NCBI GenBank assembly: GCA_039809905.1
Contig: JBDHVY010000001.1
Span: 450,001 to 482,000 of the forward strand
Source: Candidatus Babelota bacterium
GTDB taxonomy: Bacteria; Babelota; Babeliae; Babelales; Vermiphilaceae
DNA length: 32,000 nucleotides
Direction: 5' to 3'
The translations under genes and the position numbers were made by a program. Positions 7,845-27,326 of the stretch are shown piece after piece. Below the pieces are notes generated by a model. It ran no database searches. It was not told the DNA's origin and worked only from the letters and a program-made list of their open reading frames with translations. Position 1 is the first letter of the stretch, and each line of letters begins with the position of its first letter.

Positions 7845-8678
7845 ATGAAACAGCTATCATTACAAATATTTTTGCTATCGCTATGCATTTGCAGTATTTA
7901 TGCATATTCTACTGATTTTGTTACCATCGCAATACTTGCCAAAGATAAAGAACATACCCTGCCACTCTATTTACAATGTATTGAAAATCAAACATGGCCG
8001 GCCGAAAAAACATATCTTTATATTCGAACTAATAATAATAATGACAATACAAAACAGCTGCTTGGCAATTGGATTGATAAGGTTGGTCATCGCTATGCAA
8101 AAATCTATTTTGATGATTCAGATGTTGATGTTCCAGTACAAAATTTTGGCCAACACGAATGGAATTACACACGATTTCAAGTTTTAGGTGCTATTAGACA
8201 AGCATCAGTTGATTGGGCATACGAAAACAATTCTCATTACTTTGTAGCAGATTGTGATAATTTTATTATTCCTGAAACACTTGAAAGTATGATGAAAATA
8301 AATCTACCAATCGTAGCTCCTATGCTGCGTTGCTATTCACAGAAATATTACTCAAATTATCACGATATTGTTGATGAAAATGGTTATTACACCCCATCTG
8401 TACCCTATTACCAAATTCTTGATCAAAGCATTAAAGGTATCATTGATGTAGCAGTTGTACATTGCACGTATTTTATCAGACATGAAGTATTAAACACCGT
8501 ATGTTACGACGATGAATCTGCGCGTTATGAATACGTGATTTTTAGCGATTGTGCACGCAAGCACAATATTCCACAATATATCGATAATCGCATTATCTAT
8601 GGCTATATTTCTTTTGCTGAAAATAAAGAAGAATTATTGAGAGAAAAATTTTTTGAGAACATGTCACACATTGATTAA
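7845..8678 (+). CDS. Secreted or membrane-anchored GT-A glycosyltransferase-like protein resembling the N-terminal domain of collagen beta-galactosyltransferase (COLGALT/GLT25D)
   Basis: 277 aa with signal peptide MKQLSLQIFLLSLCICSIYA. By-eye alignment to human COLGALT1 (from memory) matches in blocks: IAILAKDKEHTLP / IALLARNAAHALP, TNNNNDNT / TDHNMDNT, HEWNYTRF..RQAS / KHWSDSRY..RQAA, YFVADCDNFIIPETL / LFVDADNLILNPDTL, PIVAPML / TVVAPML, YSNY / YSNF, GYY, VHCTYFI / VHSTFLI. Confidence 0.7.
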   Translation: MKQLSLQIFLLSLCICSIYAYSTDFVTIAILAKDKEHTLPLYLQCIENQTWPAEKTYLYIRTNNNNDNTKQLLGNWIDKVGHRYAKIYFDDSDVDVPVQNFGQHEWNYTRFQVLGAIRQASVDWAYENNSHYFVADCDNFIIPETLESMMKINLPIVAPMLRCYSQKYYSNYHDIVDENGYYTPSVPYYQILDQSIKGIIDVAVVHCTYFIRHEVLNTVCYDDESARYEYVIFSDCARKHNIPQYIDNRIIYGYISFAENKEELLREKFFENMSHID

Positions 8679-8761
8679 TATGGCAATTATGATATTCTAA
8701 TTGAGTAATTTATAAAAACAAACAAGTATATACAACAAGATTTTAAATATAAAAAACTCAC

Positions 8762-10168
8762 ATGAATAAAAAATTATTGCTTCTTTGTTTTATTTTTAAT
8801 TTCAACAATTTTCTACCACTTTCTGGTATGACTCACTATTGTACTAACCATAAAGAAAAGGTTTTATCTCAACCAAGAACATATTTTAGTCGAGAAAGTG
8901 GCACAAACGGAATAACAAGCAATGGCACATTTATCTTCAGCAGGCCTTACAATTCAAAAATTGCTACCTGCTTTGCAGGAGAATTCTCTAAGGGTCTTTC
9001 GAAAAGTTTGGATAAAAATCCTCTCTCTATAATCAATCTTTCAACAAGTACTCAAGATGGCTATACGTTTAAAAACATCGATAACCGAACTCCCGTATCA
9101 TGCATTCATCTTCTCAATGATAAAACAATGGCAATAGGGCATGGTAAAAAAATCTATATTGCACAAGATAATGGTAGTAGATTGATTTATTTCATCAATA
9201 ATTTTTTCGCTTACCCACGTCAACCTCGTAAGCTTAGTAAAGTTTTAGAACTTTCTCCTCAACTTGGTGTAGAAGATAGTATTGCCACAATTGAAAGTAG
9301 TCTATCTCATCTTATTGTGATTTCAAAAAAAGGGCACATTTCAACCTGGCAAAAAGTTAATAACGTTATTCAGGAAAGCAGCTTCAAAACATTTGACCAC
9401 ACATCTCCTTTTTTTTCTTATGCGGTAAACCAAGAAAAAAATATACTGTGCATGGGTTTAGATCATGGTAAAATTTTCACTGCCAATATAGCAAATCTTA
9501 ATAAACACACTATTACGCATTCACTTGATGCAGCTCTAAAAATTAATTGTATGAATTTCCAAAATAATACGCTTTTTGCATCTGCATTATGTGATTGCCA
9601 TCAAATACTTCCCACTACAAAAAATAGTAATCGTTGTAACAACAAACATGTACTTTTATCATTTGAAGAATGTAATCAAGCTGAAAACACTTTGCCTAAG
9701 ATGACAGGAAAAGAAACGCTCCTTTCTTTTCCTGAATTATGTCCAAAAAAAGCGGTATTATTGCCAAATGGTTTATTCGTATCACACACAGCACTATGCA
9801 ACAAAAATGTTTCTGATCTTGAGGAAGATGAAATTATTAAAGAGGTAATTGCAGTACATAGCCCTGATAATATTCAAAATCTATTAACTATTGATACCAC
9901 TTGTATGAGAGCAATCGAATATCCTGTCCATCCAATAATAACAGGTAATGAAATTCATATGCTGGGTGAAATAAGAAACGATTTTTCCAATTACATGATA
10001 TATTTTCATCGAATCTATACACCAAATAAATTTGGTATTATAGCAAAATATGCATATTACACTCAATTAATGAATTATATCAACAAACGATCTTATTTTT
10101 CAGTGACAATGCATTTTCTGATTCCTGCATTACTGTTATATGCAGCAAGTCGCTATTTTTCAGATTGA
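8762..10168 (+). CDS. Hypothetical protein with N-terminal signal peptide and C-terminal transmembrane anchor
   Basis: 468-aa ORF. N-terminus MNKKLLLLCFIFNFNNFLPLSG; extreme C-terminus SVTMHFLIPALLLYAASRYFSD. No family recognised. Confidence 0.6.
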   Translation: MNKKLLLLCFIFNFNNFLPLSGMTHYCTNHKEKVLSQPRTYFSRESGTNGITSNGTFIFSRPYNSKIATCFAGEFSKGLSKSLDKNPLSIINLSTSTQDGYTFKNIDNRTPVSCIHLLNDKTMAIGHGKKIYIAQDNGSRLIYFINNFFAYPRQPRKLSKVLELSPQLGVEDSIATIESSLSHLIVISKKGHISTWQKVNNVIQESSFKTFDHTSPFFSYAVNQEKNILCMGLDHGKIFTANIANLNKHTITHSLDAALKINCMNFQNNTLFASALCDCHQILPTTKNSNRCNNKHVLLSFEECNQAENTLPKMTGKETLLSFPELCPKKAVLLPNGLFVSHTALCNKNVSDLEEDEIIKEVIAVHSPDNIQNLLTIDTTCMRAIEYPVHPIITGNEIHMLGEIRNDFSNYMIYFHRIYTPNKFGIIAKYAYYTQLMNYINKRSYFSVTMHFLIPALLLYAASRYFSD

Positions 10169-10201: not shown

Positions 10202-10234
10202 AAAGCCCCATTCTGCATATACGAATGGGGCTTT
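10202..10234. terminator. Perfect 12-bp hairpin after the 8762..10168 gene (terminator candidate)
   Basis: AAAGCCCCATTC (10202-10213) / GAATGGGGCTTT (10223-10234) with a 9-nt loop and no long T-tract. The stem contains the same CCCCAT/ATGGGG motif used by the adjacent repeat element. Confidence 0.5.
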
Positions 10235-10457: not shown

Positions 10458-12665
10458 ATGCAAAAATTACGCATCGGTGTTCTTATGGGCGGCAAATCAC
10501 TTGAAAAAGAAGTTTCTTTCAATTCAGGCAGAACCATTTGTGATCACTTAGATACTACACGATATGTTGCAGTCCCCTTATTTCAAAAAAGTGCACACAT
10601 TTATATTTTACCATGGCACTTTTTACATCGAGGTAAAACCACTGATTTTGAACACAGACTTGCAAGTGAAGCTCAAGAAATTGCATGGGATGATTTAAAA
10701 AAACATATTGATCTTATTTATATTGCGCAACATGGCCGATATGCAGAAGATGGCTGCTTACAAGGATTTCTTGAAATACTCGATATCCCCTATATAGGAT
10801 CTGATATTTTAGCAAGTGCACTGCGTGGCGATAAACATATGCATAAAATAGTATTGCGTAATGCCGGTATTGAAGTTCCTGAATATATTGTTGTTGAGCC
10901 AGATGCAATTGATAATTTCGAAAAACATAAAGATCATATTTTTACGCAGCTAAAAACTATTGCCAGCACAGAATATATTGTAAAACCTTATAATGAAGGT
11001 TCAAGTTTAGGCATTTCTATCGCAGATAAAAATACATTAGAAGATGCATTAAAAAAAGCCTGCTACATTGAACCACATAAAAAAAAACGAGTAGTTGTCG
11101 AAGAAAAAATTATTGGCATGGAATTTACTTGTATTATTTTAACCGATCATAATACAGGTGAATTTTTTGCTTTACCACCAACAGAAAGTATTGCCGATGC
11201 TGAAGTTGGTTTTTTTGATTATGAACAAAAATATATGCCTGGACGTGGTATTAAGCGCACGCCTGCACACTGCTCACCTGAAATAACTGAGCGTATTCAA
11301 CAAACATGCATCAAAGTAATGAATGTTTTAGGATTTACCACTATGGGACGAATCGATGGATTTGTAACAAAAGATGGCAGAATAATTATTATTGATCCCA
11401 ACACACTTTCTGGCATGGCACCTTCAAGCTATATTTTTAATCAAGCAGCAGAAATTAATATGAGTCCATCACAGCTTATTAATTTTATAATTGAAGGCGA
11501 ACTTAAGCGATATAGTATGGATACTGTTAGTGATGATCAAGATACAATGGATAATTCACTCATGAATACTCATAAGACTCGCATCGCTGTTTTGCTCGGT
11601 GGTGCATCACATGAAAAAGAAACTTCCCTTGATTCAGGCCGCAATGTATTTTATAAATTATCTCCACAAAAATATGATGCCATTCCTTTATTTGTAACCA
11701 GTACACTAGAATTATATAAGCTCACACAATCACAACTTGTGCGAAATTCAACAAAAGAAATTGTCGATTTATTACAAGAATCTCAAAAAATAAAATGGTC
11801 TGATGTACCACATATAGCAGATTTTGTCTTTAATGCACTGCATGGTGGCGAAGGTGAAAATGGATCAGTACAAGGTACTTTAGAAATACTCGGATTACCC
11901 TACAATGGTTCATCCGTGCTTACCAGCGCATTATGCATGAATAAATATAAAACCAATGAATTTCTTGCAATGAATGGCTTTGATGTACCACAAAGTGTGT
12001 TCGTGAAAAAAGATGAATGGGTCAACTCTGCTAAGGTTTTCAATTATGTTGCTGAATTATCATACCCTCTTATTGTCAAACCACATGATGATGGTTGCAG
12101 CGTAATGGTGCAAAAAGTAGCCAATGATGATGAACTTATTGCATCTATCGATGCAATAATGCAAAAAAAAGATTCCGTACTTATAGAAGAATATATTACG
12201 GGAATGGAATTAACTGTTGGTGTAATTGGCAATAGTACAATACACGTACTACCGCCAAGCCAAGCAATTAGTGCTCATGCAATACTTTCGATTGAAGAAA
12301 AATTTTTGCCTGGTGCCGGCGAAAATCAAACACCAGCACCATTGCCACAAGAAACATTACGTTTTGTACAAGGTGTAATCGAAAAAGTTTATACAACAGT
12401 TGGTTGCAAGGGATACGCGCGTATTGATTGCTTCTACCAAAATGCAGCAATAAGCCCCACCGGCAAAGAACGTGTGGTAATTTTAGAAATAAATACATTG
12501 CCGGGATTAACTCCTGCAACTTGTTTATTTCATCAAGCAGCAGAAATTGGACTGAAACCAATGGAATTAATTGAAACTATCATCAATTTTGGTTTTGAAG
12601 AACATAGAGGAACAAATACCGAAAAACAAATTTCATCACAAGCTACTATTGAAATGTCTCAATAA
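10458..12665 (+). CDS. ddl: Tandem-fused D-alanine--D-alanine ligase (two complete Ddl ATP-grasp modules in one 735-aa polypeptide)
   Basis: Module 1 (about aa 1-350): RIGVLMGGKSLEKEVSFNSG, HGRYAEDGCLQGFLEILDIPYIGS, KPYNEGSSLGIS, FFDYEQKYMPG, GRIDGF, DPNTLSGM. Module 2 (about aa 375-725): RIAVLLGGASHEKETSLDSG, HGGEGENGSVQGTLEILGLPYNGS, KPHDDGCSVMV, IEEKFLPG, ARIDCF, EINTLPGL. Each aligns end to end with E. coli DdlB as remembered. Confidence 0.9.
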   Translation: MQKLRIGVLMGGKSLEKEVSFNSGRTICDHLDTTRYVAVPLFQKSAHIYILPWHFLHRGKTTDFEHRLASEAQEIAWDDLKKHIDLIYIAQHGRYAEDGCLQGFLEILDIPYIGSDILASALRGDKHMHKIVLRNAGIEVPEYIVVEPDAIDNFEKHKDHIFTQLKTIASTEYIVKPYNEGSSLGISIADKNTLEDALKKACYIEPHKKKRVVVEEKIIGMEFTCIILTDHNTGEFFALPPTESIADAEVGFFDYEQKYMPGRGIKRTPAHCSPEITERIQQTCIKVMNVLGFTTMGRIDGFVTKDGRIIIIDPNTLSGMAPSSYIFNQAAEINMSPSQLINFIIEGELKRYSMDTVSDDQDTMDNSLMNTHKTRIAVLLGGASHEKETSLDSGRNVFYKLSPQKYDAIPLFVTSTLELYKLTQSQLVRNSTKEIVDLLQESQKIKWSDVPHIADFVFNALHGGEGENGSVQGTLEILGLPYNGSSVLTSALCMNKYKTNEFLAMNGFDVPQSVFVKKDEWVNSAKVFNYVAELSYPLIVKPHDDGCSVMVQKVANDDELIASIDAIMQKKDSVLIEEYITGMELTVGVIGNSTIHVLPPSQAISAHAILSIEEKFLPGAGENQTPAPLPQETLRFVQGVIEKVYTTVGCKGYARIDCFYQNAAISPTGKERVVILEINTLPGLTPATCLFHQAAEIGLKPMELIETIINFGFEEHRGTNTEKQISSQATIEMSQ

Positions 12666-13323: not shown

Positions 13324-15861
13324 CTATTTTTTTGTATCAGAGTAGCTTCTTTTGCCAAATAAGCAACGATAATACAATAATTTAACAATCTCTGTTGCTA
13401 CAAAATAAACAGTCGTAATGGATAAGATCATAAACATAGTGTATGCCGTTGGGTGTTTAAAAAGAAATATGTTTTGACCTAACATAGTAAACGGTAACAC
13501 AATGATAATACCTGCTGCCATACTACATAAACTCAAAAGTAACATCGAGGGGCGATGAGCTTTGCAGAATGGCAAAGTGGTTCGTAATGAAAAAATAAAA
13601 ACTAACTGACCCAAAGCAGCTGCAATAAACCAACTTGTTTGCAATGTTGCTGGATCGGATTTGAAAAACATAAAAATAATAAAATCAAAAAATGAAATAA
13701 CCACACCAAAAAGAAGTACTACAAGACCTATATCTTTTAATGAATAACGCAATGGTCTTTTTAACTCTTGGTAAGTTACACTATCAGATGATATACCAAT
13801 CAATGGAAAATCAGTTATCAGATCTAAAAATAATAATTGCAAAGGCAACATAGGCAAATAATTGAGCCATAAAGAAGAAAGCGCTAAAGAATAAAAATGA
13901 CCTACATTGCAGGCAATAGTAACTTTAATATATTTTAGTGTATTGATAATTATTTTTCTTCCTTCTTCCACTCCTAACATTATATTCAATAAGCTTTTTT
14001 GTAATAATATAATTTCTGCCGCTTCTTGTGCTACACGAGCTGCATCTTTTACCGCAATACCAACTTGAGCAATTTTAAGCGCAGGCGCATCATTAATACC
14101 ATCTCCAATATATCCCACAGAATAGGTACGTTGCAAAAGCGAAATGATCTCATATTTTTGTTGAGGATTAACTCGAGCAAAAATAGTACGTCCATTCACC
14201 AGCTCTGTTTTTTCTTGTTCATTTGCTTTTTCAAAATCAGATCCAAGCACCACATTATCATGATTATTTTCTAATCCCAGTTGTTGCGCTATAAAAAAAC
14301 AGACATCTCGACTATCTCCACTCAGAATCTTAATTTGAACATCCAATGCTTGTGCCTTTTTTATTGCAGTCAAAGCCGTACTATTAAGAGGATCAACAAA
14401 TGCAATTAATCCTATTGAATCGTATTTTATATCGTCATCATTAATAAATTCTGTTTTTACCTTTTTTTCTGGGACTTCTTTTATTGCAACTGCAATAACA
14501 CGATTGCTTTTCGTTTCATTATCACTCATCCATGCTTTAAGCTTTTCCAGTTCATCTGATTGCAATGGAACACAATGTTCCACAACATATTCAAAAGAAC
14601 CCTTGGTAATAAAAAAATGAGTATTATTTTTTTGAGCAAATGTAATAGTACGATGACGCTCATAAGTGAAAGGTAATGTCTTAATCACCGTATATTGCGC
14701 AATTTCTTTCGATTGTTCGGGAGTTAATTTTTGTACAATAGCGGCATCAAAGCTATTGGATGTTATAGTAGTATCAGCAGAAAGAGCTGCAAAAATAAGA
14801 CTGTCATAATTATCGGAATTATATACGTCTTTCACTTTTAAGTTATTTTCTGTTAATGTCCCGGTTTTATCAGCACAAAAAACATTGATTCCACCCAAAT
14901 CTTCTATAGCAGATAATCTTTTTACAATTATTTTATGCTTATGGAGTGCCATAGCACCACGAGTCAAACAAAAAGTAATAACTATGGGCAATGCCGAAGG
15001 AATAGCAGTAATAGAAAGCGCTGCAGCAAAAAATAGTATATTAATAAAAGAAATATGGTCTGTTTTAATAAACAGATTAATAAAAATAATAACAGCAAGG
15101 CTTATAAGAATTAATATCAAAACAAAACGAGCAAGTTGCATACTATTTTGCGCAAGATTACTTTTAATAATGGTATGCGTAGCCAATGCAGAAATAGAAC
15201 CTAATTGTGAATGAACTCCTGTTGCAAAAACTACGCCAATTCCAGACCCATCCGTTACAACAGTACCAGCAAAAGCAGATGTCGTTGTTTTCCACAATTC
15301 TGTTATTGTTTCTTGAGGTAATTCATGCATTTTGTGGATAGGAATAGATTCACCGCTCAAACTTGCTTCATCAATCATAAGGTTATTACTATCAATAATA
15401 CGACAATCAGCAGGGACAATATCACCTGCCTTCAGCACAATAATATCCCCAGGAACAATAGTACTTACCTCAACTTTTTGATCAGTTCCATTTCGACGTA
15501 CTAAAATAGATGCTTCAAGATAAGCCTGCAACAATTCCATTGCTTTATTGCTATGATATTCTTGGTAAAAACCAATTGCAGTATTGATTATCATAATCAT
15601 GATAATAATAATAGATTCGGTGTATTGCTGTGTAAAAAAGTAAAGTATCGCAACACATACAAACATAAAAATAAAAGGATTTTTAACCTGATTGAAAAAG
15701 ATAGTCAACGCGGTTACATTCGTGCGTTGTAATCTATTAGGACCATACGTAATGAAACGCTTTTTTGCTTCTTGTTCAGTCAGCCCGCAAGACGTTGTCT
15801 GCAAATCATCAAAAACCTTTTCTACGCTCAAATTACTATAAAAAAGAAAATCTTTATTCAT
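13324..15861 (-). CDS. Cation-transporting P-type ATPase, divergent tandem paralog (TM4 motif PSALP instead of PEGLP)
   Basis: 845 aa. Motifs: Cation_ATPase_N-like GLTEQEAKKRFITYGPN, actuator LSGES, phosphorylation site CADKTGTLTEN, KGSFE, DPLN, ILSGDS, GDGINDAPALK; about 10 predicted TM helices. Confidence 0.9.
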   Translation of the reverse strand: MNKDFLFYSNLSVEKVFDDLQTTSCGLTEQEAKKRFITYGPNRLQRTNVTALTIFFNQVKNPFIFMFVCVAILYFFTQQYTESIIIIMIMIINTAIGFYQEYHSNKAMELLQAYLEASILVRRNGTDQKVEVSTIVPGDIIVLKAGDIVPADCRIIDSNNLMIDEASLSGESIPIHKMHELPQETITELWKTTTSAFAGTVVTDGSGIGVVFATGVHSQLGSISALATHTIIKSNLAQNSMQLARFVLILILISLAVIIFINLFIKTDHISFINILFFAAALSITAIPSALPIVITFCLTRGAMALHKHKIIVKRLSAIEDLGGINVFCADKTGTLTENNLKVKDVYNSDNYDSLIFAALSADTTITSNSFDAAIVQKLTPEQSKEIAQYTVIKTLPFTYERHRTITFAQKNNTHFFITKGSFEYVVEHCVPLQSDELEKLKAWMSDNETKSNRVIAVAIKEVPEKKVKTEFINDDDIKYDSIGLIAFVDPLNSTALTAIKKAQALDVQIKILSGDSRDVCFFIAQQLGLENNHDNVVLGSDFEKANEQEKTELVNGRTIFARVNPQQKYEIISLLQRTYSVGYIGDGINDAPALKIAQVGIAVKDAARVAQEAAEIILLQKSLLNIMLGVEEGRKIIINTLKYIKVTIACNVGHFYSLALSSLWLNYLPMLPLQLLFLDLITDFPLIGISSDSVTYQELKRPLRYSLKDIGLVVLLFGVVISFFDFIIFMFFKSDPATLQTSWFIAAALGQLVFIFSLRTTLPFCKAHRPSMLLLSLCSMAAGIIIVLPFTMLGQNIFLFKHPTAYTMFMILSITTVYFVATEIVKLLYYRCLFGKRSYSDTKK

Positions 15862-18394
15862 GATATTTATTCTTAAAAGAGTAGTACGTGAGTTTCACCG
15901 TTTCAGCAATTATCATGTTAAACATAATCACACCGATTAACCATGGCGCGTGTTCTAAACGCGGAGATGAGAATAAAAAGATTGTATGTCCAATAGTTGT
16001 AAAAGGTAAAATAAGAGCGGTTAAAACAACAAACAAAGAAAGCCCCATCAATAACCGTGATGGTCGATGAGCTCTGAAAAATAACATTGGCGCACGAAAC
16101 AAGAAAATAAAAATAACTTCTGAAATAGTACTAGTGATAAACCAACTTGTCTGTAATGTTTCAGGAAAATGGGATCGAAACACCAAAAAGATCGTAATAT
16201 CGGCAATAAACATAATAGTCCCAAAAAGCACAATTAAAATCGCAGCATCAGTCATATCATACGTGACCGGTTTTTGTACTTCTTGCTCACTAACATTATC
16301 GGTAGAGATAGCAATCATAGGCAAATCAGTCAGCAAATTTAAAAATAATAATTGCATAGGAAGCATTGGTGGATAATTCACTAAAAGCGAGGCTACTGCT
16401 AACGCATAAAAATGACCAAAACTAGGTGCATTAGTCATTTTCGTGTACTTCAGTGTATTAACAATAGTACGTCTTCCCTGCTCAATTCCTAAAATTACTG
16501 AACTTAAGCTTTTACGTAGCAAAATAATTTCAGCTGCTTCACGTGCAACTGAAGCAGCATCATTCACCGCAAAACTAACATGCGCCATTTTCAGTGCTGG
16601 CGCATCATTAATACCATCGCCCATGTAGCCAACAGAATATTTATCTTTTAAATGTTTAATAATTTCATATTTTTGTTCTGGATTTACTCGAGCAAAAATT
16701 GATCGGTTATGAGCTAAAAATATTTTTTCTTCTTCCGTAGCTTTTTCAAAATCAGATCCTAATACAACATTGTTAATATCTTCTTCAAGGCCAAGTTGTT
16801 GGGCAATAGTAAAGCAAACGTGTTTGCTATCGCCACTTAATATTTTTATATCAATTCCAAGCGATTTTGCTTTTTGTACCGTTGTTAATGCAGTGCTTTT
16901 GAGCGGATCTTGAAACGCAATTAAGCCAATTGTCTCATAATCATGATCGTCAGCAGTAATGTCGTAAGCTCCATTACCATAATCAGATATATTTTTAGTT
17001 GCTACTGCCAAAATACGATTTCCTTTTGATTCTTCTGTTTCAATCCATGAAGCTATAATATTTTTTTCTTCTTGATTTAAAAAAGAACATTTTTCTATAA
17101 CTACTTCCGGAGATCCTTTTATAATAAGCGTATGCACTCCTTCTTTCTGCACAAGCGCCATGCTTTGGCGTTTTTGTGGCGTAAAAGGAATATCTTTTAC
17201 CAATGTATGTTTCTTGCCATGTTCAGCATATTCCTGAGTTAATTTTTTTTGTAACGCTAACTCAAAACCTTTCGTAGCACTTTCTTTTGTTGCAGTTTGA
17301 GGCGGACAAGAAAGTACCGCATACATAATTATCTCATCAGGATTTTTAGCATAAATAGCATCGACAGTTAATGCATTTTCGGTGAGCGTTCCTGTTTTAT
17401 CAGTACAAAAAACTTCTATAGATCCCAGATCACCAATTGCAGATAACCGTTTTACGATAACATTATTTTTTTTCAGGGATGATGCACCCTGCGATAAACA
17501 AAAGGTAATAACCATCGGCAAACCTTCTGGTATTGCCGTAATGGTAAGCGCTGCAGCAAAAAGGAAGAAATCAACAAAATTAAGTTCACCACCATGCTTT
17601 ACAATGTGCACTAAAGCAGTGAGCAGTAAACTAAAAAAAATAAGATATATCGTAAATTTGGCAATAGAAACAGAACCTTTTTCAAGACTACTTTTAGTAA
17701 TCACCTGCGCCGTCAATGCTGCAAGTGTGCCAAGCGCACTTTGAGAACCAGTTGCAATAACAACACCGACACCTTTACCATGTGTTACCACGGTTCCCGT
17801 AAAACCAATATTTTCAGCTTTATACATATCGGTTATTGCTTCTTGCAATGGTTCAGCATGTTTAATAACAGCAATAGATTCACCCGTTAAACTCGATTCA
17901 TCAATGGTGAGATTATCCACTTCAATAAAACGACAATCAGCAGGAATAACATCTCCTGCTGAAAGTATTATAATATCTCCCGGCACTAATTGATTAATAT
18001 CAATATTTATTTCTGAGCTATTGCGGCGTACCGTAACTTGAGACATAAGACATTTTTTAAGAGCCTGCATTGCAGTATTGCTACGATATTCTTGGTAAAA
18101 ACCAATTCCTACATTCACTGCAATAATGACAAAAATGATGATACATTCAGCAATTTTTCCTGTGAACAAATATGCAAGACCTATCACAAAAAAAATACAC
18201 ATAAAAGGACTTAAAAGCTGGGCCTTAAGAACATCAAGCCATGTAATTTCTGTTTCTTTTATTTCATTTAAGCCATATTTCTTCAGACGATCAGCAACTT
18301 CATCCTGAGTAAGACCCTTGTGTATAGTTTTCAATTCCTTTAATGCATCTTCAATTGATAATGAGGTATATAAAGAAAAATTTTTACGTTCCAT
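15854..18394 (-). CDS. Cation-transporting P-type ATPase (P2-like, canonical PEGLP TM4 motif; Ca2+/Mg2+-type family)
   Basis: 846 aa. Motifs: GLTQDEVADRLKKYGLNE, LTGES, AIPEGLPMVITF, CTDKTGTLTEN, KGSPE, DPLK, ILSGDS, GDGINDAPALK. Its stop overlaps the downstream paralog's ATG by 8 nt (15854-15861). Confidence 0.9.
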   Translation of the reverse strand: MERKNFSLYTSLSIEDALKELKTIHKGLTQDEVADRLKKYGLNEIKETEITWLDVLKAQLLSPFMCIFFVIGLAYLFTGKIAECIIIFVIIAVNVGIGFYQEYRSNTAMQALKKCLMSQVTVRRNSSEINIDINQLVPGDIIILSAGDVIPADCRFIEVDNLTIDESSLTGESIAVIKHAEPLQEAITDMYKAENIGFTGTVVTHGKGVGVVIATGSQSALGTLAALTAQVITKSSLEKGSVSIAKFTIYLIFFSLLLTALVHIVKHGGELNFVDFFLFAAALTITAIPEGLPMVITFCLSQGASSLKKNNVIVKRLSAIGDLGSIEVFCTDKTGTLTENALTVDAIYAKNPDEIIMYAVLSCPPQTATKESATKGFELALQKKLTQEYAEHGKKHTLVKDIPFTPQKRQSMALVQKEGVHTLIIKGSPEVVIEKCSFLNQEEKNIIASWIETEESKGNRILAVATKNISDYGNGAYDITADDHDYETIGLIAFQDPLKSTALTTVQKAKSLGIDIKILSGDSKHVCFTIAQQLGLEEDINNVVLGSDFEKATEEEKIFLAHNRSIFARVNPEQKYEIIKHLKDKYSVGYMGDGINDAPALKMAHVSFAVNDAASVAREAAEIILLRKSLSSVILGIEQGRRTIVNTLKYTKMTNAPSFGHFYALAVASLLVNYPPMLPMQLLFLNLLTDLPMIAISTDNVSEQEVQKPVTYDMTDAAILIVLFGTIMFIADITIFLVFRSHFPETLQTSWFITSTISEVIFIFLFRAPMLFFRAHRPSRLLMGLSLFVVLTALILPFTTIGHTIFLFSSPRLEHAPWLIGVIMFNMIIAETVKLTYYSFKNKYHE

Positions 18395-19964: not shown

Positions 19965-21755
19965 ATGAAAACAATAACTTTCTTTTTTTTTATCGCGATT
20001 ATAGCACATACAGCCTCATCATCAGCAATGTATTTTATTCGCCATAACAAAAATGCACAAGCTACAGAAAAATGTTATTGTGCAATTAAGGATAATAATA
20101 CCAAAAAAGTAAAAAAATATATTAAGCAAGGGGCGAATGTCAACTACGTACCTGAAACAGACAATCCCTTTAAACAAAATTTTCTACAACTTGCTCTATA
20201 TAAAAAAAGTATACCAATCATAGAATTATTACTCGGCGCAAATGCCATGAATGTCAACAGTCATCCTACTGGCAGTATGCCACCTCTCCATTATGGAGTC
20301 TTATCAGGTAATCCTGTTATCGTCAATTTATTGCTTAATCATCCAACAACAAATATCAACATTACTGACCATGATGGTTGTATTTGTCTATTCACCGCTT
20401 TTGATAGTATATCAGCCCATAATCGATTGATAGCAAAAGCCCTATTAGATAGAAAAATAGATATAACCATACCTAACCAAAAAGGCGATACAATACTTCA
20501 TTATGTTTGTAAAAAAGCATCTCTTGATTGGGTTAATCTTATTTTAACCACCGATAATCCATTACTTAATACTCAAGACACCTATGGAGATACTCCAGTA
20601 CATGTCGCGTGTTACATGAATGCTGCTTCTATTATACAAGCGATGTTATCAAGCAAACATTGTATTAACCTACAACTTCGCAACAAAAATGGACATTCAG
20701 TCATTGATATCGCTTTTTACCATAAATACGACGGTATTCTTTCTCTTTTTTTTGACAAACACTTTAAAGAACTTATGTCCGCATATCCCAAAGATCAAAG
20801 AATCTTTGATTTTGCAATACGCGCTAATAAACCGACAATATTAGAAAAAATACTGCCATCACGACATACTAATAGCTCCAACCAAGATGGCCTTACTCCC
20901 CTCATGATTGCAAGCGAAAAAGGACATAGTAAAATTCTAAAATTGTTACTTAAAGAAAAAAAATGCAAACCATTATTTAAAAATCAATTCGATCGAATAG
21001 CCCTGCATTATGCAGCTGAATATGGAAATCTTAAATGTGTTAAAATTTTATGCAACTATGGCGCTCTTAACCAACAAGATTATCTTAAAAACACCCCTTT
21101 ACATTTTGCCAGCGCACATAAACATATTGAGGTCATCGATTATTTGATTGAAAAAAAAGCAAAGCCATTGATAGGAAACAAAAAAGGTTTTATACCTCTT
21201 GTTATCATCTATAAAAACAATATTCAGAGTAATCTTAAAAAAACAACTTTAGATTATATGATTCATGCAAGAGATAAACAGCAGAATACATCATTTCATA
21301 TGCTGACTGAAATTAAGAATATTCTCTATGATTCTTACGATTATGATGATTTGCTGAATTTTCTTTTTGTTAATCATCTTGATATATATGCTCGAAACAA
21401 GAAAGGAGAAACAGTTTTCGATAAGATAAACACACAATATAACATATCATTTGTCTCATCCATAATGAAGCAAAGCTTTTTGCGCGTATCATCTGATCGT
21501 CTACCATGTGCCTTATTTAGGCAGATGTTGGATATAATTGCAATAAAAGATGTGTTTCCTCTTATTCTTATTTTTTATTATAAACTCAATATCGAAACCA
21601 TCTTTGCCAAAATATGTAAAAAAAATATAAATGATGACATTATGTCCCATCCTACACAAAGACTAAAAGAATTCAAAGCAAATTTATCCAATAATTTATG
21701 TTATTTTCCATTGTTATTCAGATCTGTAGAAGATTTTTATCAACGGCAAAAATAA
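19965..21755 (+). CDS. Ankyrin-repeat protein with N-terminal signal peptide (large member)
   Basis: 596 aa. Signal-like MKTITFFFFIAIIAHTASSSA. Multiple ANK units, e.g. DGLTPLMIASEKGHSKILKLLLKEK and DRIALHYAAEYGNLKCVKILCNYGALNQQDYLKNTPLHFASAHKHIEVIDYLIEKKA. The C-terminal region contains KLNIETIFAKI, related to the LNIET..AQK block of the next three genes. Confidence 0.85.
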   Translation: MKTITFFFFIAIIAHTASSSAMYFIRHNKNAQATEKCYCAIKDNNTKKVKKYIKQGANVNYVPETDNPFKQNFLQLALYKKSIPIIELLLGANAMNVNSHPTGSMPPLHYGVLSGNPVIVNLLLNHPTTNINITDHDGCICLFTAFDSISAHNRLIAKALLDRKIDITIPNQKGDTILHYVCKKASLDWVNLILTTDNPLLNTQDTYGDTPVHVACYMNAASIIQAMLSSKHCINLQLRNKNGHSVIDIAFYHKYDGILSLFFDKHFKELMSAYPKDQRIFDFAIRANKPTILEKILPSRHTNSSNQDGLTPLMIASEKGHSKILKLLLKEKKCKPLFKNQFDRIALHYAAEYGNLKCVKILCNYGALNQQDYLKNTPLHFASAHKHIEVIDYLIEKKAKPLIGNKKGFIPLVIIYKNNIQSNLKKTTLDYMIHARDKQQNTSFHMLTEIKNILYDSYDYDDLLNFLFVNHLDIYARNKKGETVFDKINTQYNISFVSSIMKQSFLRVSSDRLPCALFRQMLDIIAIKDVFPLILIFYYKLNIETIFAKICKKNINDDIMSHPTQRLKEFKANLSNNLCYFPLLFRSVEDFYQRQK

Positions 21756-21840
21756 TGATCAAATGCCTTTGCTTTTTCTTTACATATCCTCTATTTAATG
21801 TAAATATTTCCGAAAATACTACTTAAAGGATAAATATTAT

Positions 21841-22914
21841 ATGAAGCATATAAAAATAAAAATGTTTATCGCATTACTATTTCTGAGCAATGTCACCCTA
21901 GGCATGATAAGAAAAAATCCATCGCCAACTAATTATGCCCTTGAAGCAATAAAAAAGGATTCTCCCATTGAATTACATATTGCATCTATGTTTAATGCAG
22001 ATATGAGTTATAAGGATGACTATGGAAACAACTTACTATTATTAGCAATAAAAGAAGGAAAAGAGCACGCAGCTAATTATCTTTCTTCTCACCCATATTT
22101 TCAAAATAATGTAGTAATGGATGATCAAAATATTTTCGGAGAAACTGCTTTAATATGCTCATCATTACTCAATTACAAAACAACAATCTCAAATATATTA
22201 AAAATAAAAGATGTTAACCTTAACATACAAGATTATCGTCGCAAATCAGCTTTACATTGGGCTGTTTATCATTCAGACAATGATATTATTCGACTATTTA
22301 TAGAAAAGGGAGCTAATCCAACAATGCAAAACGAGCACGGAGCAACCGTTGCTTTTTATGGTGCTCTTAATAATCGCCATCTTGATCCACTAATTGCAGA
22401 AAAAATTATACTGGCAAAAGATACCTGTGGAAATACACAATTTCACTTACTTACAATGGCTAATATAAGAAAAATGACAGAAGAATCAGACACTACTCTT
22501 TGTGACTGGTTGTGTCATATTCTTAATAACTTCATAAGATATAACCTCAATTTCTTAAGTTTAAACAATTGTTGCCTGAACCCCGTAGAAACGGCATACG
22601 AGAAATATTGGAAATTATATTATAAGCACAAAACAAAAAAATCGTTTTGCTCAAAAAAACTGAATACTCAGGAAGAAATATTACATATTTTGTTACTGTG
22701 TTATTTCCAGCACAGACAAAATGATCCTTTTATTTCTTATTCTCCCTATGTACAGCAATTGAATATAGAAACAGCAATGGCACAAAAATACATCGGCAAT
22801 AAATCTTATTATCACTACTATACCATTGATACTAAAGATAAAATAAGACAAGAACTATGCGCTGATCAAACAAATATTCCAACAGTTTGGATACATCACA
22901 CTCAACAAAAATGA
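21841..22914 (+). CDS. Secreted ankyrin-repeat protein, tandem paralog 1 (C-terminally shortened)
   Basis: 357 aa. MKHIKIKMFIALLFLSNVTLG signal; ANK units (GETALICSSLLNYKTTISNIL..., SALHWAVYHSDNDIIRLFIEKGANPTMQNEHGATVAF); conserved C-terminal module EEILHILLLCYFQ...LNIETAMAQKY...IPTVWI. RBS AAGGAT-N10-ATG. Confidence 0.85.
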   Translation: MKHIKIKMFIALLFLSNVTLGMIRKNPSPTNYALEAIKKDSPIELHIASMFNADMSYKDDYGNNLLLLAIKEGKEHAANYLSSHPYFQNNVVMDDQNIFGETALICSSLLNYKTTISNILKIKDVNLNIQDYRRKSALHWAVYHSDNDIIRLFIEKGANPTMQNEHGATVAFYGALNNRHLDPLIAEKIILAKDTCGNTQFHLLTMANIRKMTEESDTTLCDWLCHILNNFIRYNLNFLSLNNCCLNPVETAYEKYWKLYYKHKTKKSFCSKKLNTQEEILHILLLCYFQHRQNDPFISYSPYVQQLNIETAMAQKYIGNKSYYHYYTIDTKDKIRQELCADQTNIPTVWIHHTQQK

Positions 22915-22922
22915 AGGATTAT

Positions 22923-24068
22923 ATGAAGCACATAAAAACAAAAATGTTTTTCACCTTATTTTTTATCGGTAATACCATCATAAGTATGGATATAATCAAG
23001 GTAGATAAAACACCATCGGTATCAACACAAAAAGCTATTGATGCAATAGAAAATGATTCACCTAAAGACTTAGCAGCAGCACTTGCAATGGGTGCAGATA
23101 TTAGTCATATAAGTAAACGTAACAATAATTTATTATTATTAGCAACAAGAAAGGGCAAAGAAAAAACGGCTCTCTATCTTGTTATTCAACCACATTTTCA
23201 AAATAATACCGTAATCAATGAACAAAATATTTTTGGCGAAACTGTTTTAATATGCGCAGCTTATCAGGGCTATAAAACATTGGTAGAAAATCTGTTAAAA
23301 ATAAAAAATATTAATCTTGATCTGCAAGATGTCCATGGCTATGATGCATTATTCACTGCGATCACACGAGAAAAAAGCGATATTACCAAATTACTTATGG
23401 AATATAATGCTAATCCAACAATTCAAAATGAACACGGAGCAACTACTGCTTTTTCTCGGAATATTCTTAGTAATTCAACAATTGATTCTTCAATAAGAAC
23501 AAAAATCATTAAAGCTAAAGATATTAATGGAAACTCTCAACTTCACCTGCTCGTAGCGGCAGATATAGGGAAAATGGCAAACACCTCAAAAAAAACCATT
23601 GATTCTTTATTTTCTAATATTCTTGAAAATTTAATAAAACATGGAACAAGTATATGGGAAATAAATAACTATAATATGCTTCCTGTAGAAACTGCATTTC
23701 AAAAATATAATGAATTACATCAACAATTCGCCTTAACAAAAAGATCTTATTTAAAAAAACGTTTAGACAATCAAGAAAAAATATTACATATTTTATTACT
23801 CTATTATTTAAAGGAAACATCAGGCAAACCAATTCTTATTTCAACACCATCACATACACACGGATTGAATATCGAAACAGTAATAGCACAAAAATACAAT
23901 CAGAATGAATGCTATTACAAAGATTATACTATTGAATATAAAGATAAACTAAAACAGCAACTCTGGGCTCATCAGATAAACATCCCCCCTGTTTGGATAT
24001 CACATGTTTACATTGCACCTACAATAATAGATGAATATGGTGATACCAATTATAATTCCTTGAAATAA
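22923..24068 (+). CDS. Secreted ankyrin-repeat protein, tandem paralog 2
   Basis: The paralog-conserved start MKHIKTKMFFTLFFIGNTIIS is at 22923; the ORF-track start 22887 lies inside paralog 1. ANK units (GETVLICAAYQGYKTLVENLL, DALFTAITREKSDITKLLMEYNANPTIQNEHGATTAF) and C-terminal module EKILHILLLYYLK...LNIETVIAQKY...IPPVWIS...EYGDTNYNSLK. Confidence 0.8.
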   Translation: MKHIKTKMFFTLFFIGNTIISMDIIKVDKTPSVSTQKAIDAIENDSPKDLAAALAMGADISHISKRNNNLLLLATRKGKEKTALYLVIQPHFQNNTVINEQNIFGETVLICAAYQGYKTLVENLLKIKNINLDLQDVHGYDALFTAITREKSDITKLLMEYNANPTIQNEHGATTAFSRNILSNSTIDSSIRTKIIKAKDINGNSQLHLLVAADIGKMANTSKKTIDSLFSNILENLIKHGTSIWEINNYNMLPVETAFQKYNELHQQFALTKRSYLKKRLDNQEKILHILLLYYLKETSGKPILISTPSHTHGLNIETVIAQKYNQNECYYKDYTIEYKDKLKQQLWAHQINIPPVWISHVYIAPTIIDEYGDTNYNSLK

Positions 24069-24139
24069 CAAAAGCTTGCGTACATTATGATTAAAAAAAA
24101 TAATTGCAGTATTCATTTTATAGAAAGGATGAATATCAC

Positions 24140-25291
24140 ATGAAGCACATAAAAACAAAATTATTTTTTTTATTACTTTTTATCAGCAACGTCATCAGCA
24201 GCATGGATATATTGCAAGCAAAAAAGAAATCATCTCCAGCAACAAAAGCTGCTCTTAATGCTATAACAAATGATTCAGTTAACTCCTTGAAAGCTGCACT
24301 TTCACAAGGCGCAGATATCAGCTGTGTAACTAAAAATGGAAATACTTTACTATTATCAGCTACCCAAAGACAAAAAAAGAAAACCTCTCTGTATCTTTCT
24401 ATTCAGCCATATTTTCAGAATGACCTCATAATCAATCACCAAAACTTTGCAGGAAAAACAGTTTTAATGGAAGCAGCCTTTCATGGATATAAAAAGATAG
24501 TAAAAAAGATATTAAAAATAAAAAACATTGGCCTCGACCTACAAGATATGAATGGAGATTTTGCTCTGCATTTTGCTGTCCGTAAGGGGCATAATGATAT
24601 TACTCGATTACTGGTAGAACATGGAGCTAACCCAACAATTCAAGACAATAACGGAATAACCATTGCTTTTTATAAAAATGTGCTTGATAACCACAACCTT
24701 GATTCAGCTATAATAAAAAAAATTATATATGCACGAGATGCTCATGAAAATACTCAACTTCACTTGCTTGCAACAGCAGATATAGAAAGCATGATAAAAA
24801 CCAACAACCAATCTATTTCAGCAAATGATTTATTTTTCATGATTGTTGAAAACTTGATACAACACGGCGTAAGCATATGGAGCATGAACGATAATAATAT
24901 GCTCGCCGTAGAAACTGCATATGAGAGATATTGTGCATTGCATCAACAGTATACAAAAAACCCAAGAATTTATTTGATGAACACCTTAAACAGTCAAGAA
25001 AAAATATTACATTTGCTGCTGCTCTATTATTTAAAGCAAACACAAAACAAACCCATTTCAATGTTACCATCACCTTATACATGCGGATTAAATATCGAAA
25101 CGGTAATGGCACAAAAACATGCAAATAATGAAAACTATTATCAAAACTATAGTATTGATACTAAAAATAAGTTAAAAAGAAAATTATGGATAAATCAGAC
25201 ACAGATCCCAATAGTTTGGGTATCACCAGCTTATGCTGGCCCCTCAATAATAAATGAATATGGCGACACCAACTATAATTCCTTGAAATAA
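24140..25291 (+). CDS. Secreted ankyrin-repeat protein, tandem paralog 3
   Basis: Conserved start MKHIKTKLFFLLLFISNVISS at 24140, preceded by AAGGAT-N10. The ORF-track start 24104 is a TTG in the spacer. ANK units (GKTVLMEAAFHGYKKIVKKIL, FALHFAVRKGHNDITRLLVEHGANPTIQDNNGITIAF). The C-terminus ends in the same EYGDTNYNSLK as paralog 2. Confidence 0.8.
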   Translation: MKHIKTKLFFLLLFISNVISSMDILQAKKKSSPATKAALNAITNDSVNSLKAALSQGADISCVTKNGNTLLLSATQRQKKKTSLYLSIQPYFQNDLIINHQNFAGKTVLMEAAFHGYKKIVKKILKIKNIGLDLQDMNGDFALHFAVRKGHNDITRLLVEHGANPTIQDNNGITIAFYKNVLDNHNLDSAIIKKIIYARDAHENTQLHLLATADIESMIKTNNQSISANDLFFMIVENLIQHGVSIWSMNDNNMLAVETAYERYCALHQQYTKNPRIYLMNTLNSQEKILHLLLLYYLKQTQNKPISMLPSPYTCGLNIETVMAQKHANNENYYQNYSIDTKNKLKRKLWINQTQIPIVWVSPAYAGPSIINEYGDTNYNSLK

Positions 25292-25401
25292 CTGAACATA
25301 ATTATCCATACTCATAAAAAACAAAAAAGAGATTTGCTTACATTATGATTAAGAAAATAATTGCTGCATTCATTTTTATTGTTTGTTTAGGATATATAAT
25401 C

Positions 25402-26022
25402 ATGCCGAACGATCCATTACGTAAATATAAATCAAAACGAAATCTTGATACGTCTGGCGAACCTAACTCCGCTAAAGCTACATCGGATACAACGGCGGGC
25501 AATCCCCATGATAAGCCCATTTTTGTTGTTCAAAAACATGATGCAAGCCATTTACATTATGATGTTCGCTTAGAAATTAATGGGGTACTTAAATCATGGG
25601 CAGTTCCTAAAGGCCCTTCAACTAACCCAGCTATTAAACGCCTTGCCGTAGAAACAGAAGATCATCCCATGGAATATGCAACGTTCGAAGGAGTAATTCC
25701 TGAAGGCCATTATGGAGCTGGCCCTGTTATCGTGTGGGATACCGGCACTTTTGATAACATAAAAGAAAAAGATGGTAACATTATCCCTATCGAAAAGTCC
25801 TATAAAAAAGGACAAATTGAAGTTAATCTCCATGGTAAAAAACTGCAAGGAGGATACGCTCTTATTCGCACCGCTGCGCAGGAAAAAAAATGGTTACTTA
25901 TTAAAATGCGCGATGAATATGCAAATGCACGCCGTAATCCAGTAAACACAGAACAAGAATCAGTTTTATCAGGAAAAACAATAGAAAATATAGAACATTC
26001 CAAAAAAAAATTAAAAAAATGA
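25402..26022 (+). CDS. Stand-alone LigD-type 3'-phosphoesterase (PE) domain protein (NHEJ end-processing)
   Basis: MPNDPLRKYKSKRNLDTSGEP... then FVVQKHDASHLHYDVRLE..GVLKSWAVPKGPS and ...EDHPMEYATFEG.IPEG.YGAGPVIVWDTGTF match the LigD PE signature. Start chosen at 25402 (AGGAT-N8-ATG). The longer ORF from 25345 adds a hydrophobic 19-aa extension whose DNA is homologous to non-coding spacer at 24075-24120. Confidence 0.85.
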   Translation: MPNDPLRKYKSKRNLDTSGEPNSAKATSDTTAGNPHDKPIFVVQKHDASHLHYDVRLEINGVLKSWAVPKGPSTNPAIKRLAVETEDHPMEYATFEGVIPEGHYGAGPVIVWDTGTFDNIKEKDGNIIPIEKSYKKGQIEVNLHGKKLQGGYALIRTAAQEKKWLLIKMRDEYANARRNPVNTEQESVLSGKTIENIEHSKKKLKK

Positions 26023-27324: not shown

Positions 27325-27326
27325 TT

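What the first reader, a model, noticed from the sequence alone, without database searches (positions are those of the whole stretch)
10458..12665. Ddl-Ddl tandem fusion whose second module lacks the Ser and Tyr of the catalytic triad
One 735-aa ORF holds two complete D-Ala-D-Ala ligase modules joined by a linker of about 25 aa (SMDTVSDDQDTMDNSLMNTH). I know of Ddl fused to MurC in chlamydiae. I do not recall a characterised Ddl-Ddl fusion.

By-eye alignment to E. coli DdlB shows module 1 keeps the Glu15/Ser150/Tyr216 hydrogen-bond triad (EKEVS, EGSS, EQKY). Module 2 has Glu/Cys/Phe instead (EKETS, DGCS, EEKF).

Replacing this Tyr with Phe is the classic change that lets Ddl enzymes make D-Ala-D-lactate. 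It is seen in Leuconostoc-type ligases and in the DdlB Y216F mutant. Module 2 may therefore ligate a different second substrate or make a depsipeptide, or it may be regulatory or inactive.
Basis: partly seen in the sequence, partly recalled or inferred. Interest (0 to 1): 0.65.

Follow-up and report, generated by a model that had tools for sequence, protein, structure and literature searches.

The report
Two-module D-alanine ligase fusion
One gene of a Dependentiae (TM6) bacterium joins two different D-alanine ligase modules, a pairing conserved across several bacterial phyla and reported in plants, and nobody has shown what the altered second module makes.

Summary
ORF 10458-12665 (+, 735 aa) holds two complete Ddl modules joined by a variable linker of about 20 aa.

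Alignment to verified E. coli DdlB gives Glu/Ser/Tyr in module 1 and Glu/Cys/Phe in module 2. The fusion is not an artefact: 120 of 120 close homologues, named Candidatus Babeliales where named, are fused and carry the same signature.

The pairing extends far beyond this lineage:
- It is fused in some Bacteroidota and in Peregrinibacteria/Patescibacteria, sometimes extended with MurF and alanine racemase.
- It occurs as two same-order neighbouring genes in Syntrophales, Chloroflexota and Melainabacteria, once next to alr.
- Papers report that plant DDL is also a fusion of two Ddl enzymes, so the architecture is not new.

Both modules keep every ATP, Mg and catalytic residue I checked. Module 2 is at least as conserved as module 1, which argues against a dead domain.

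The two classes differ consistently at only five DdlB positions (150, 216, 270, 275, 281). By my recollection of DdlB structures, all five lie in the active site.

Most likely this is a covalent heterodimer of two active ligases. Module 1 probably makes D-Ala-D-Ala, and module 2 has a remodelled acceptor site. Its product, D-Ala-D-Ala or another D-Ala-D-X, cannot be settled in silico. No VanH/VanX context supports D-lactate.

The parts
10458..12665 (+). Complete ORF of the two-module Ddl-Ddl ligase (735 aa plus stop)
   Evidence: ORF listing. Two Dala_Dala_lig_N and two Dala_Dala_lig_C stretches. 120 fused homologues at 57-81% identity. AlphaFold2 mean pLDDT 91.2, pTM 0.88.
10458..11513 (+). 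Module 1 (aa 1-352), the Tyr-type Ddl module. Triad Glu16 (10503-10505), Ser182 (11001-11003), Tyr259 (11232-11234). Class-specific Asp313 (DdlB E270), Ser318 (P275) and Tyr325 (L282).
   Evidence: Alignments to verified DdlB. Codons checked. Best PDB match is Salmonella DdlA 3I12, E 6.8e-38.
11514..11573 (+). Inter-module linker (about aa 353-372, SMDTVSDDQDTMDNSLMNTH)
   Evidence: Only 23% mean identity to homologues, against 66-68% in the modules. pLDDT falls to 59-73 here.
11574..12605 (+). Module 2 (aa 373-716), the Cys/Phe-type Ddl module. Glu386 (11613-11615), Cys547 (12096-12098), Phe616 (12303-12305). Thr688 (DdlB S281) and Cys689 (L282). Canonical Glu677 and Pro682.
   Evidence: C and F are invariant in 120/120 close homologues and at 97% across 118 diverse fusions.
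12606..12662 (+). C-terminal tail (aa 717-735), predicted disordered and poorly conserved
   Evidence: pLDDT below 50 for residues 722-735. The consensus is undefined here.
10206..10230 (+). GC-rich hairpin (CCCCATTC...GAATGGGG followed by CTTT) after the upstream gene. It suggests that the ligase gene is transcribed on its own.
   Evidence: Read directly in the sequence. The consensus terminator scan did not list it, so this is an inference.

Best explanation
The gene encodes a covalently linked heterodimer of two paralogous Ddl-type ATP-grasp ligases. Both appear catalytically competent, and the enzyme serves the D-alanine branch of peptidoglycan precursor synthesis (alanine racemase, then Ddl, then MurF).

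Module 1 keeps the Glu/Ser/Tyr triad and is the likely D-Ala-D-Ala synthase.

Module 2 keeps the whole phosphoryl-transfer machinery. Its triad and acceptor subsite are remodelled in a fixed way: S150C, Y216F, S281T and L282C/V in DdlB numbering. I infer that it binds D-Ala in the first subsite (Glu15 and His63 are kept) and has a shifted or relaxed acceptor preference, or different kinetics. It would then make D-Ala-D-X, possibly a depsipeptide, or D-Ala-D-Ala under a different regime.

The fusion is the fused form of a two-gene pair (M1 then M2) found in other phyla. It probably folds as an intramolecular copy of the usual Ddl dimer.

Shown: the architecture, the residue pattern, its conservation, and the gene and fusion partners.
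Inferred: that both modules are active, the dimer-like packing, and any difference in product.
For: - Both modules keep all ATP, Mg and catalytic residues I checked, in 120 close and 118 diverse homologues.
- Module 2 is slightly more conserved than module 1, and the linker is free to vary.
- Across all fusion groups, the only positions conserved within each class but different between classes are DdlB 150, 216, 270, 275 and 281. By my recollection of DdlB structures, all five are active-site positions.
- The same M1-then-M2 order occurs as separate neighbouring or overlapping genes in Syntrophales, Chloroflexota, Patescibacteria and Melainabacteria.
- In L039 the order is alr, M1, an unassigned 257-aa gene that looks like an outer-membrane protein, then M2.
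- Relatives extend the fusion to M1-M2-MurF and M1-M2-MurF-Alr. MurF scores 319.7 and 352.8 against a cut-off of 288.6; Alr scores 295.7 against 168.
- pTM of 0.88 for the whole 735-aa chain suggests a fixed arrangement of the two modules.
- Literature: a Y/F switch at this position controls dipeptide versus depsipeptide synthesis in lactic acid bacteria (PMC5996685). Y216F and S150A DdlB gain weak D-Ala-D-Lac activity (PMC7691350).
Against: - There are no biochemical data for any member.
- Moss, whose DDL is reported to be a two-module fusion, accumulates ordinary D-Ala-D-Ala pentapeptide precursors (PMC9434261). According to PMC9954125, its knockout can no longer dimerise D-alanine. D-Ala-D-Ala alone may therefore be the product.
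- No D-lactate dehydrogenase, VanX or serine racemase gene lies nearby in the loci whose neighbours were examined.
- Module 1 is itself non-canonical (E270D, P275S, L282F/Y), so assigning it the 'normal' role is an assumption.
- I could not inspect model coordinates, so the dimer-like packing is untested.
- In the NJ tree the split-gene M2 proteins cluster nearer to M1 than to fused M2. Profile scores place them on the M2 side only relative to the baseline set by canonical Ddls.
Confidence: 0.45

Rival explanations
1. Module 2 is simply a second D-Ala-D-Ala ligase site. After an old duplication the enzyme became an obligate heterodimer, later fused. The Cys/Phe pair is a co-adapted alternative to Ser/Tyr that does not change the product.
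For: - DdlB Y216F was crystallised with ADP and a phosphoryl phosphinate bound in the active site (PDB 1IOW). From memory, this mutant retains D-Ala-D-Ala ligase activity.
- Moss precursors end in D-Ala-D-Ala (PMC9434261).
- The fusion partners are MurF and Alr only, and alr is a neighbour in L039.
- No D-lactate or D-serine supply genes are nearby.
Against: - Cys150 and Phe216 are held at about 97% across phyla at 30-60% overall identity, and S281T and L282C/V accompany them. Such fixity is unusual for neutral or merely tolerated changes.
- Two identical activities in one polypeptide have no obvious benefit.
Confidence: 0.35
2. Module 2 specifically makes D-Ala-D-lactate, as the Phe-type ligases of Leuconostoc and Lactobacillus do, giving depsipeptide-terminated precursors.
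For: - Phe sits at DdlB position 216.
- The Ser of the triad is also lost.
- Literature on the Y/F switch (PMC5996685) and on the Y216F and S150A mutants (PMC7691350).
Against: - NF000206 D_ala_D_lac scores 161.7 against a cut-off of 550, and VanA scores 141.6 against 775.
- Verified LmDdl2 keeps Ser150, Ser281 and Leu282, unlike module 2.
- The modules form their own clade apart from VanA and VanB. LmDdl2 was not included in that tree.
- No vanH-, vanX- or D-LDH-like neighbour was found.
- A D-Ala-D-Ala-making module in the same chain would defeat any vancomycin-resistance purpose.
Confidence: 0.12
3. Module 2 is a non-catalytic structural or regulatory partner (a pseudoenzyme) that only stabilises or controls module 1.
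For: - The canonical triad is broken.
- Module 2 is the more derived paralogue relative to canonical Ddls: the M1 profile scores canonical Ddls 44-91 bits higher than the M2 profile does.
Against: - All ATP-, Mg- and phosphate-contacting residues I checked are invariant or nearly so in module 2.
- Module 2 has canonical E270 and P275 where module 1 deviates.
- It is as conserved as module 1.
Confidence: 0.07
4. The fusion is an assembly or frameshift artefact that joins two adjacent ddl genes.
For: Split adjacent M1 and M2 genes do exist in other phyla, and in one Dependentiae-like MAG (L007).
Against: More than 100 independent assemblies, including contigs over 1 Mb, carry the same uninterrupted ORF with a variable in-frame linker.
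Confidence: 0.01

Closest known systems
Plant DDL (Arabidopsis At3g08840, Physcomitrella PpDDL, rice OsDDL)
   Same: One polypeptide with two putative Ddl enzymes in tandem (PMC9954125 and its Fig. S3 legend). It belongs to the peptidoglycan pathway. Its origin is assigned to Chlamydiae/CFB bacteria or the FCB group (PMC3493653, PMC9434261), a group in which I found bacterial fusions of this type.
   Different: Plant DDL is eukaryotic, nuclear-encoded and plastid-related. I had no plant sequence, so I could not check whether its second module carries Cys/Phe or whether it belongs to the same M1/M2 clade.
E. coli DdlB and its Y216F and S150A mutants (PDB 2DLN, 1IOW)
   Same: Same fold: TM-score 0.91-0.92 normalised to the DdlB chain. 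The catalytic residues are the same. Module 2 naturally carries the Y216F change and a change at Ser150.
   Different: The natural replacement at 150 is Cys, not Ala. It comes with S281T and L282C/V and sits in a two-module chain. DdlB is a single-module homodimer (from established knowledge).
Leuconostoc mesenteroides D-Ala-D-Lac ligase LmDdl2 (PDB 1EHI)
   Same: Phe at the DdlB Tyr216 position, within a K-F motif in the omega loop.
   Different: LmDdl2 keeps Ser150, Ser281 and Leu282 and is a single module. Module 2 scores far below the D_ala_D_lac family cut-off.
Chlamydial MurC-Ddl fusion and bifunctional MurF-alanine racemase (NCBIfam PRK14573, PRK11930)
   Same: Fusions of enzymes from the same peptidoglycan precursor pathway. 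Relatives of this protein extend to M1-M2-MurF and M1-M2-MurF-Alr.
   Different: Those join different enzymes. Here two paralogous ligases of the same step are joined. The PRK14573 score is only 116-120 against a cut-off of 1015.

Membership tests
D-Ala-D-Ala ligase family (Ddl, ATP-grasp; Pfam PF01820 + PF07478) | Both Pfam domains present above the gathering score | tested here: met
   Two N and two C domain stretches; 158.1 bits against 34.6 and 256 bits against 24.
D-Ala-D-Ala ligase family (Ddl, ATP-grasp; Pfam PF01820 + PF07478) | ATP, Mg and catalytic residues (DdlB K97, K144, E180, E187, K215, R255, D257, E270, N272, G276) | tested here: met
   Present in both modules. Module 1 has the conservative E270D in 120/120.
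D-Ala-D-Ala ligase family (Ddl, ATP-grasp; Pfam PF01820 + PF07478) | Glu15/Ser150/Tyr216 triad typical of ligases that make only D-Ala-D-Ala | tested here: inconclusive
   Met by module 1 (E16/S182/Y259). Not met by module 2 (E386/C547/F616).
D-Ala-D-Ala ligase family (Ddl, ATP-grasp; Pfam PF01820 + PF07478) | NCBIfam curated cut-offs for the Ddl subfamily models | tested here: not met
   Module 1: 221.7 against 262 and 218.3 against 245.65. Module 2: 242.7 against 243 and 237.9 against 245.65. Both are divergent Ddl-like sequences just below the cut-off.
D-Ala-D-Ala ligase family (Ddl, ATP-grasp; Pfam PF01820 + PF07478) | Produces D-Ala-D-Ala | not testable with these tools
   Needs an enzyme assay.
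VanA/VanB-type D-Ala-D-Lac ligases | Family score cut-off, the Van-type omega loop, and vanH/vanX neighbours | tested here: not met
   Module 2 scores 141.6 against 775 for VanA and 125.7 against 750 for VanB. The omega loop is K-F, not the VanA/B type. No VanH or VanX nearby.
Lactic-acid-bacterial Phe-type D-Ala-D-Lac ligase (LmDdl2) | Phe at the DdlB-216 position | tested here: met
   Phe616.
Lactic-acid-bacterial Phe-type D-Ala-D-Lac ligase (LmDdl2) | Rest of the active site and overall sequence as in LmDdl2 (NF000206) | tested here: not met
   161.7 against 550. Cys, Thr and Cys replace the Ser, Ser and Leu of LmDdl2.
VanC/VanG-type D-Ala-D-Ser ligases | Family score cut-offs | tested here: not met
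   Module 2 scores 189.7 against 495 for VanG and 143.8 against 650 for VanC.
Two-module DDL as described in plants | Two Ddl enzymes in one polypeptide | tested here: met
   The plant architecture is taken from PMC9954125.
Two-module DDL as described in plants | Orthology to the plant proteins, with the same M1/M2 signatures | not tested
   No plant DDL sequence could be obtained. Hirano 2016 and Machida 2006 are not held, and the supplement shows the sequence only as an image.
M1/M2 Ddl pair (defined here from the data) | M1 (S150, Y216, D270, S275, F/Y282) followed by M2 (C150, F216, E270, P275, T281, C/V282), fused or adjacent | tested here: met
   The window protein matches both signatures. 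The pattern recurs in Dependentiae, Bacteroidota, Peregrinibacteria, Syntrophales, Chloroflexota and Melainabacteria.

The most novel reading that the evidence does not exclude
The Cys/Phe module is a distinct, ancient ligase class that makes a product other than D-Ala-D-Ala. Candidates are D-Ala-D-lactate, D-Ala-Gly or another D-Ala-D-X. If so, Dependentiae, Peregrinibacteria, some Bacteroidota, Syntrophales and Chloroflexota would build a second kind of peptidoglycan stem terminus or D-Ala conjugate, and plants might too if their DDL shares the signature. This could also explain why angiosperms without a full Mur pathway keep DDL, and where the plant D-Ala dipeptides of unknown enzymatic origin come from (PMC7432710).
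Probability: 0.25. Interest if true: 0.8.

Novelty: new variant of a known kind. Interest (0 to 1): 0.55.

Why it matters
Ddl is an antibiotic target (D-cycloserine), and its product is what vancomycin binds. A conserved Tyr-type plus Cys/Phe-type pair has no biochemical description in the literature I could search. It occurs in several poorly known phyla, including the host-dependent Dependentiae and the candidate phyla radiation (Patescibacteria), and may occur in plants.

If module 2 has its own product or regulation, predictions of cell-wall chemistry and drug susceptibility for these lineages would change. It would also give a concrete hypothesis for the puzzling two-module plant DDL.

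The question can be tested directly by expressing the modules and assaying them with a panel of substrates.

Tried and rejected
- Assembly or frameshift artefact: rejected by more than 100 independent fused homologues.
- Context clues for D-lactate or D-serine supply: none in the window or in three Dependentiae relatives, where the conserved neighbours are PriA and RNase T. Rfam and tRNA scans of the window found nothing. The promoter and terminator scan was uninformative.
- Literature:
  - No paper links Dependentiae or TM6 with Ddl.
  - General searches for tandem Ddl fusions gave nothing specific.
  - Hirano 2016 and Machida 2006 are not held.
- Plant sequence: the AtDDL supplement holds it only as an image. 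P0206 (a UniParc entry) was considered as a possible plant protein, but nothing supports that.
- Phylogeny: only neighbour-joining was available. It groups the fused M2 modules together but puts the split-gene M2 proteins next to M1. I treated that topology as unreliable and used profile scores instead.
- PMC7691350 can be read as saying that LmDdl2 has Ala at the Ser150 position. The verified 1EHI sequence shows Ser there.
Full report
OBSERVATION

The window holds a single ATG-initiated ORF at 10458-12665 (+) of 735 aa. Pfam finds two Dala_Dala_lig_N and two Dala_Dala_lig_C stretches. The two halves are colinear and 35% identical.

I took E. coli DdlB from the annotated K-12 genome so that residue numbering was verified rather than recalled. 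MAFFT and hmmalign alignments agree:
- Module 1 has Glu16/Ser182/Tyr259 at DdlB 15/150/216.
- Module 2 has Glu386/Cys547/Phe616.

The codons were read directly.

IS THE FUSION REAL?

The 120 best homologues are all single fused proteins. They show 57-81% identity and lengths of 699-943 aa, and come from many independent assemblies, some on contigs over 1 Mb. Where a source names them, they are called Candidatus Babeliales, that is Dependentiae or TM6.

In all 120, module 1 has Ser/Tyr and module 2 has Cys/Phe. Mean identity to the query is 66% for module 1, 68% for module 2 and 23% for the linker. Selection therefore acts on both modules and not on the linker. A frameshift artefact is excluded.

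The window's low G+C (about 33%) and its ankyrin-repeat genes fit the Dependentiae assignment suggested by the named homologues.

HOW FAR DOES THE FUSION REACH?

A profile-free scan of 1.84 billion representatives found three size classes of double-Ddl proteins:
- about 705-760 aa, Dependentiae-like;
- about 860-930 aa, named Bacteroidetes or Cytophagales;
- about 780-830 aa, mostly named Peregrinibacteria or Patescibacteria.

Read against DdlB, every class shows the same pattern:
- Module 1: Ser150, Tyr216, Asp at 270, Phe/Tyr at 282.
- Module 2: Cys150, Phe216, Leu210, Thr281, Cys/Val at 282.

Over 118 diverse fusions, only five positions are conserved within each class but differ between classes: DdlB 150, 216, 270, 275 and 281. 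By my recollection of DdlB structures, these are the triad, a Mg ligand, the loop next to Gly276 and the residue that binds the D-Ala2 carboxylate.

Both modules keep K97, K144, E180, E187, K215, R255, D257, N272 and G276.

SPLIT FORMS AND LONGER FUSIONS

A pattern scan of GTDB species genomes found module-2-type sequences in at least 584 stretches.

In Dependentiae and Bacteroidota they are fused. In Syntrophales, Chloroflexota/Anaerolineae, Patescibacteria and Melainabacteria, M1-type and M2-type proteins are separate genes. These are co-directional, in the same order, and often adjacent or overlapping.

In the Syntrophaceae locus L039 the order is alanine racemase, M1, an unassigned 257-aa gene that looks like an outer-membrane protein, then M2.

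Some relatives carry still longer fusions:
- M1-M2-MurF and M1-M2-MurF-Alr, where MurF and Alr pass their NCBIfam cut-offs;
- M1-M2-PASTA and GNAT-M1-M2.

These partners place the pair firmly in the D-alanine branch of peptidoglycan precursor synthesis.

RELATIONSHIP TO KNOWN LIGASES

Both modules match DdlA-type structures best (3I12). The AlphaFold2 model is confident (pLDDT 91.2, pTM 0.88), and each module superposes on Ddl, VanA, VanG and LmDdl2 structures.

In an NJ tree with verified EcDdlA, EcDdlB, VanA, VanB, a VanG-like ligase and a Sphingomonas Ddl, all M1 and M2 modules form one clade apart from the references. Fused M2 modules group together, but split-gene M2 proteins sit nearer to M1. 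Profile scores show them shifted towards M2 relative to canonical Ddls. I regard module 2 as the more derived paralogue and leave the deep topology unresolved.

Neither module reaches any Van, D-Ala-D-Lac or D-Ala-D-Ser family cut-off, and both fall just below the generic Ddl subfamily cut-offs.

The LmDdl2 sequence I recalled was confirmed against PDB 1EHI, matching at 376 of 377 positions. LmDdl2 shares only the Phe with module 2 and keeps Ser150, Ser281 and Leu282.

WHAT IS ALREADY KNOWN

- Arabidopsis and Physcomitrella DDL are described as a fusion of two putative DDL enzymes (PMC9954125).
- The moss gene is needed for plastid division (PMC9434261, PMC12681378).
- Its origin is assigned to Chlamydiae/CFB or FCB-group bacteria (PMC3493653, PMC9434261).
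- The Tyr/Phe switch that controls dipeptide versus depsipeptide synthesis is documented (PMC5996685), as are the Y216F and S150A DdlB mutants (PMC7691350).

I found no paper that describes bacterial Ddl-Ddl fusions, the Cys/Phe signature, or separate activities of the two modules. The library is incomplete, and the key plant paper was not readable.

MECHANISM

Best supported (0.45): a covalent heterodimer of two active ligases. Module 1 makes D-Ala-D-Ala for MurF, and module 2 has a remodelled acceptor site and triad.

Closest rival (0.35): both sites make only D-Ala-D-Ala. The moss precursor data and the lack of any D-lactate or D-serine supply genes nearby support this.

Other readings:
- A specific D-Ala-D-Lac activity is possible but unsupported (0.12).
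- A pseudoenzyme role is unlikely given the intact catalytic residues (0.07).
- An artefact is excluded (0.01).

VERDICT

The fusion as such is not new. The window protein is an ordinary member of a large family, which nonetheless has no biochemical characterisation that I could find.

What appears to be undescribed, and is testable, is the phylum-spanning and invariant division of labour between a Tyr-type module and a Cys/Phe-type module.

Noticed in passing
window 13324-15861 and 15854-18394 (- strand): Two tandem paralogous P-type cation ATPases (845 and 846 aa) overlap by 8 bases. A relative (L091) has one intact copy followed by fragments of another.
   Followed up: partly
window 19965-25291 (+): A run of four consecutive ankyrin-repeat proteins (596, 357, 393 and 395 aa). 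Ankyrin-repeat genes also lie near the ligase gene in two related Dependentiae contigs (L091, L092), in keeping with a host-dependent lifestyle.
   Followed up: no
window 25345-26930 (+): The LigD 3'-phosphoesterase domain and the LigD primase-polymerase domain are encoded as two separate adjacent genes. No ligase domain or Ku was identified among the ORFs of at least 120 aa that I scanned. A VKOR-family protein (26944-27324) and a transaldolase (27261-27986) follow.
   Followed up: partly
window 7106-10168, compared with L090, L091 and L092: In three related Dependentiae contigs an RNase T gene lies directly and divergently upstream of the ligase gene. In the window two extra genes sit between them: 7845-8678 (a weak glycosyltransferase-2 hit) and 8762-10168 (468 aa, no family match).
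   Followed up: partly
P0229, P0208, P0131, P0153, P0210 (relatives, not in the window): Longer fusions of the same M1-M2 pair: with MurF (1262 aa), with MurF plus alanine racemase (1638 aa), with C-terminal PASTA domains (about 1250 aa), and with an N-terminal GNAT acetyltransferase (987 aa).
   Followed up: partly
L007 4883-7149 (MAG OY969428.1): One Dependentiae-like genome has M1 and M2 as two overlapping ORFs instead of one. This is either a real split or a sequencing frameshift.
   Followed up: no
P0124, P0225, P0226, P0263 (relatives): Rare natural variants of module 2 keep Phe216 but have Ser instead of Cys at position 150. They would be useful natural controls for the role of the Cys.
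   Followed up: no
both modules, DdlB positions 283-286 (window aa 326-329 and 690-693): Both M1 and M2 have an aromatic-rich segment after position 282 (for example IFNQ or FFHQ in M1, LFHQ or IYHQ in M2). Canonical Ddls have VPMA or YPKL there. This is a clade signature in the C-terminal part of the protein and was not explored further.
   Followed up: no
L046, L056, L057, L058 (Syntrophaceae and related MAGs): In these loci the M2-type gene has no M1-type gene within the 4-6 kb of upstream flank held (4.1 kb in L056), so the pair is not always adjacent.
   Followed up: no
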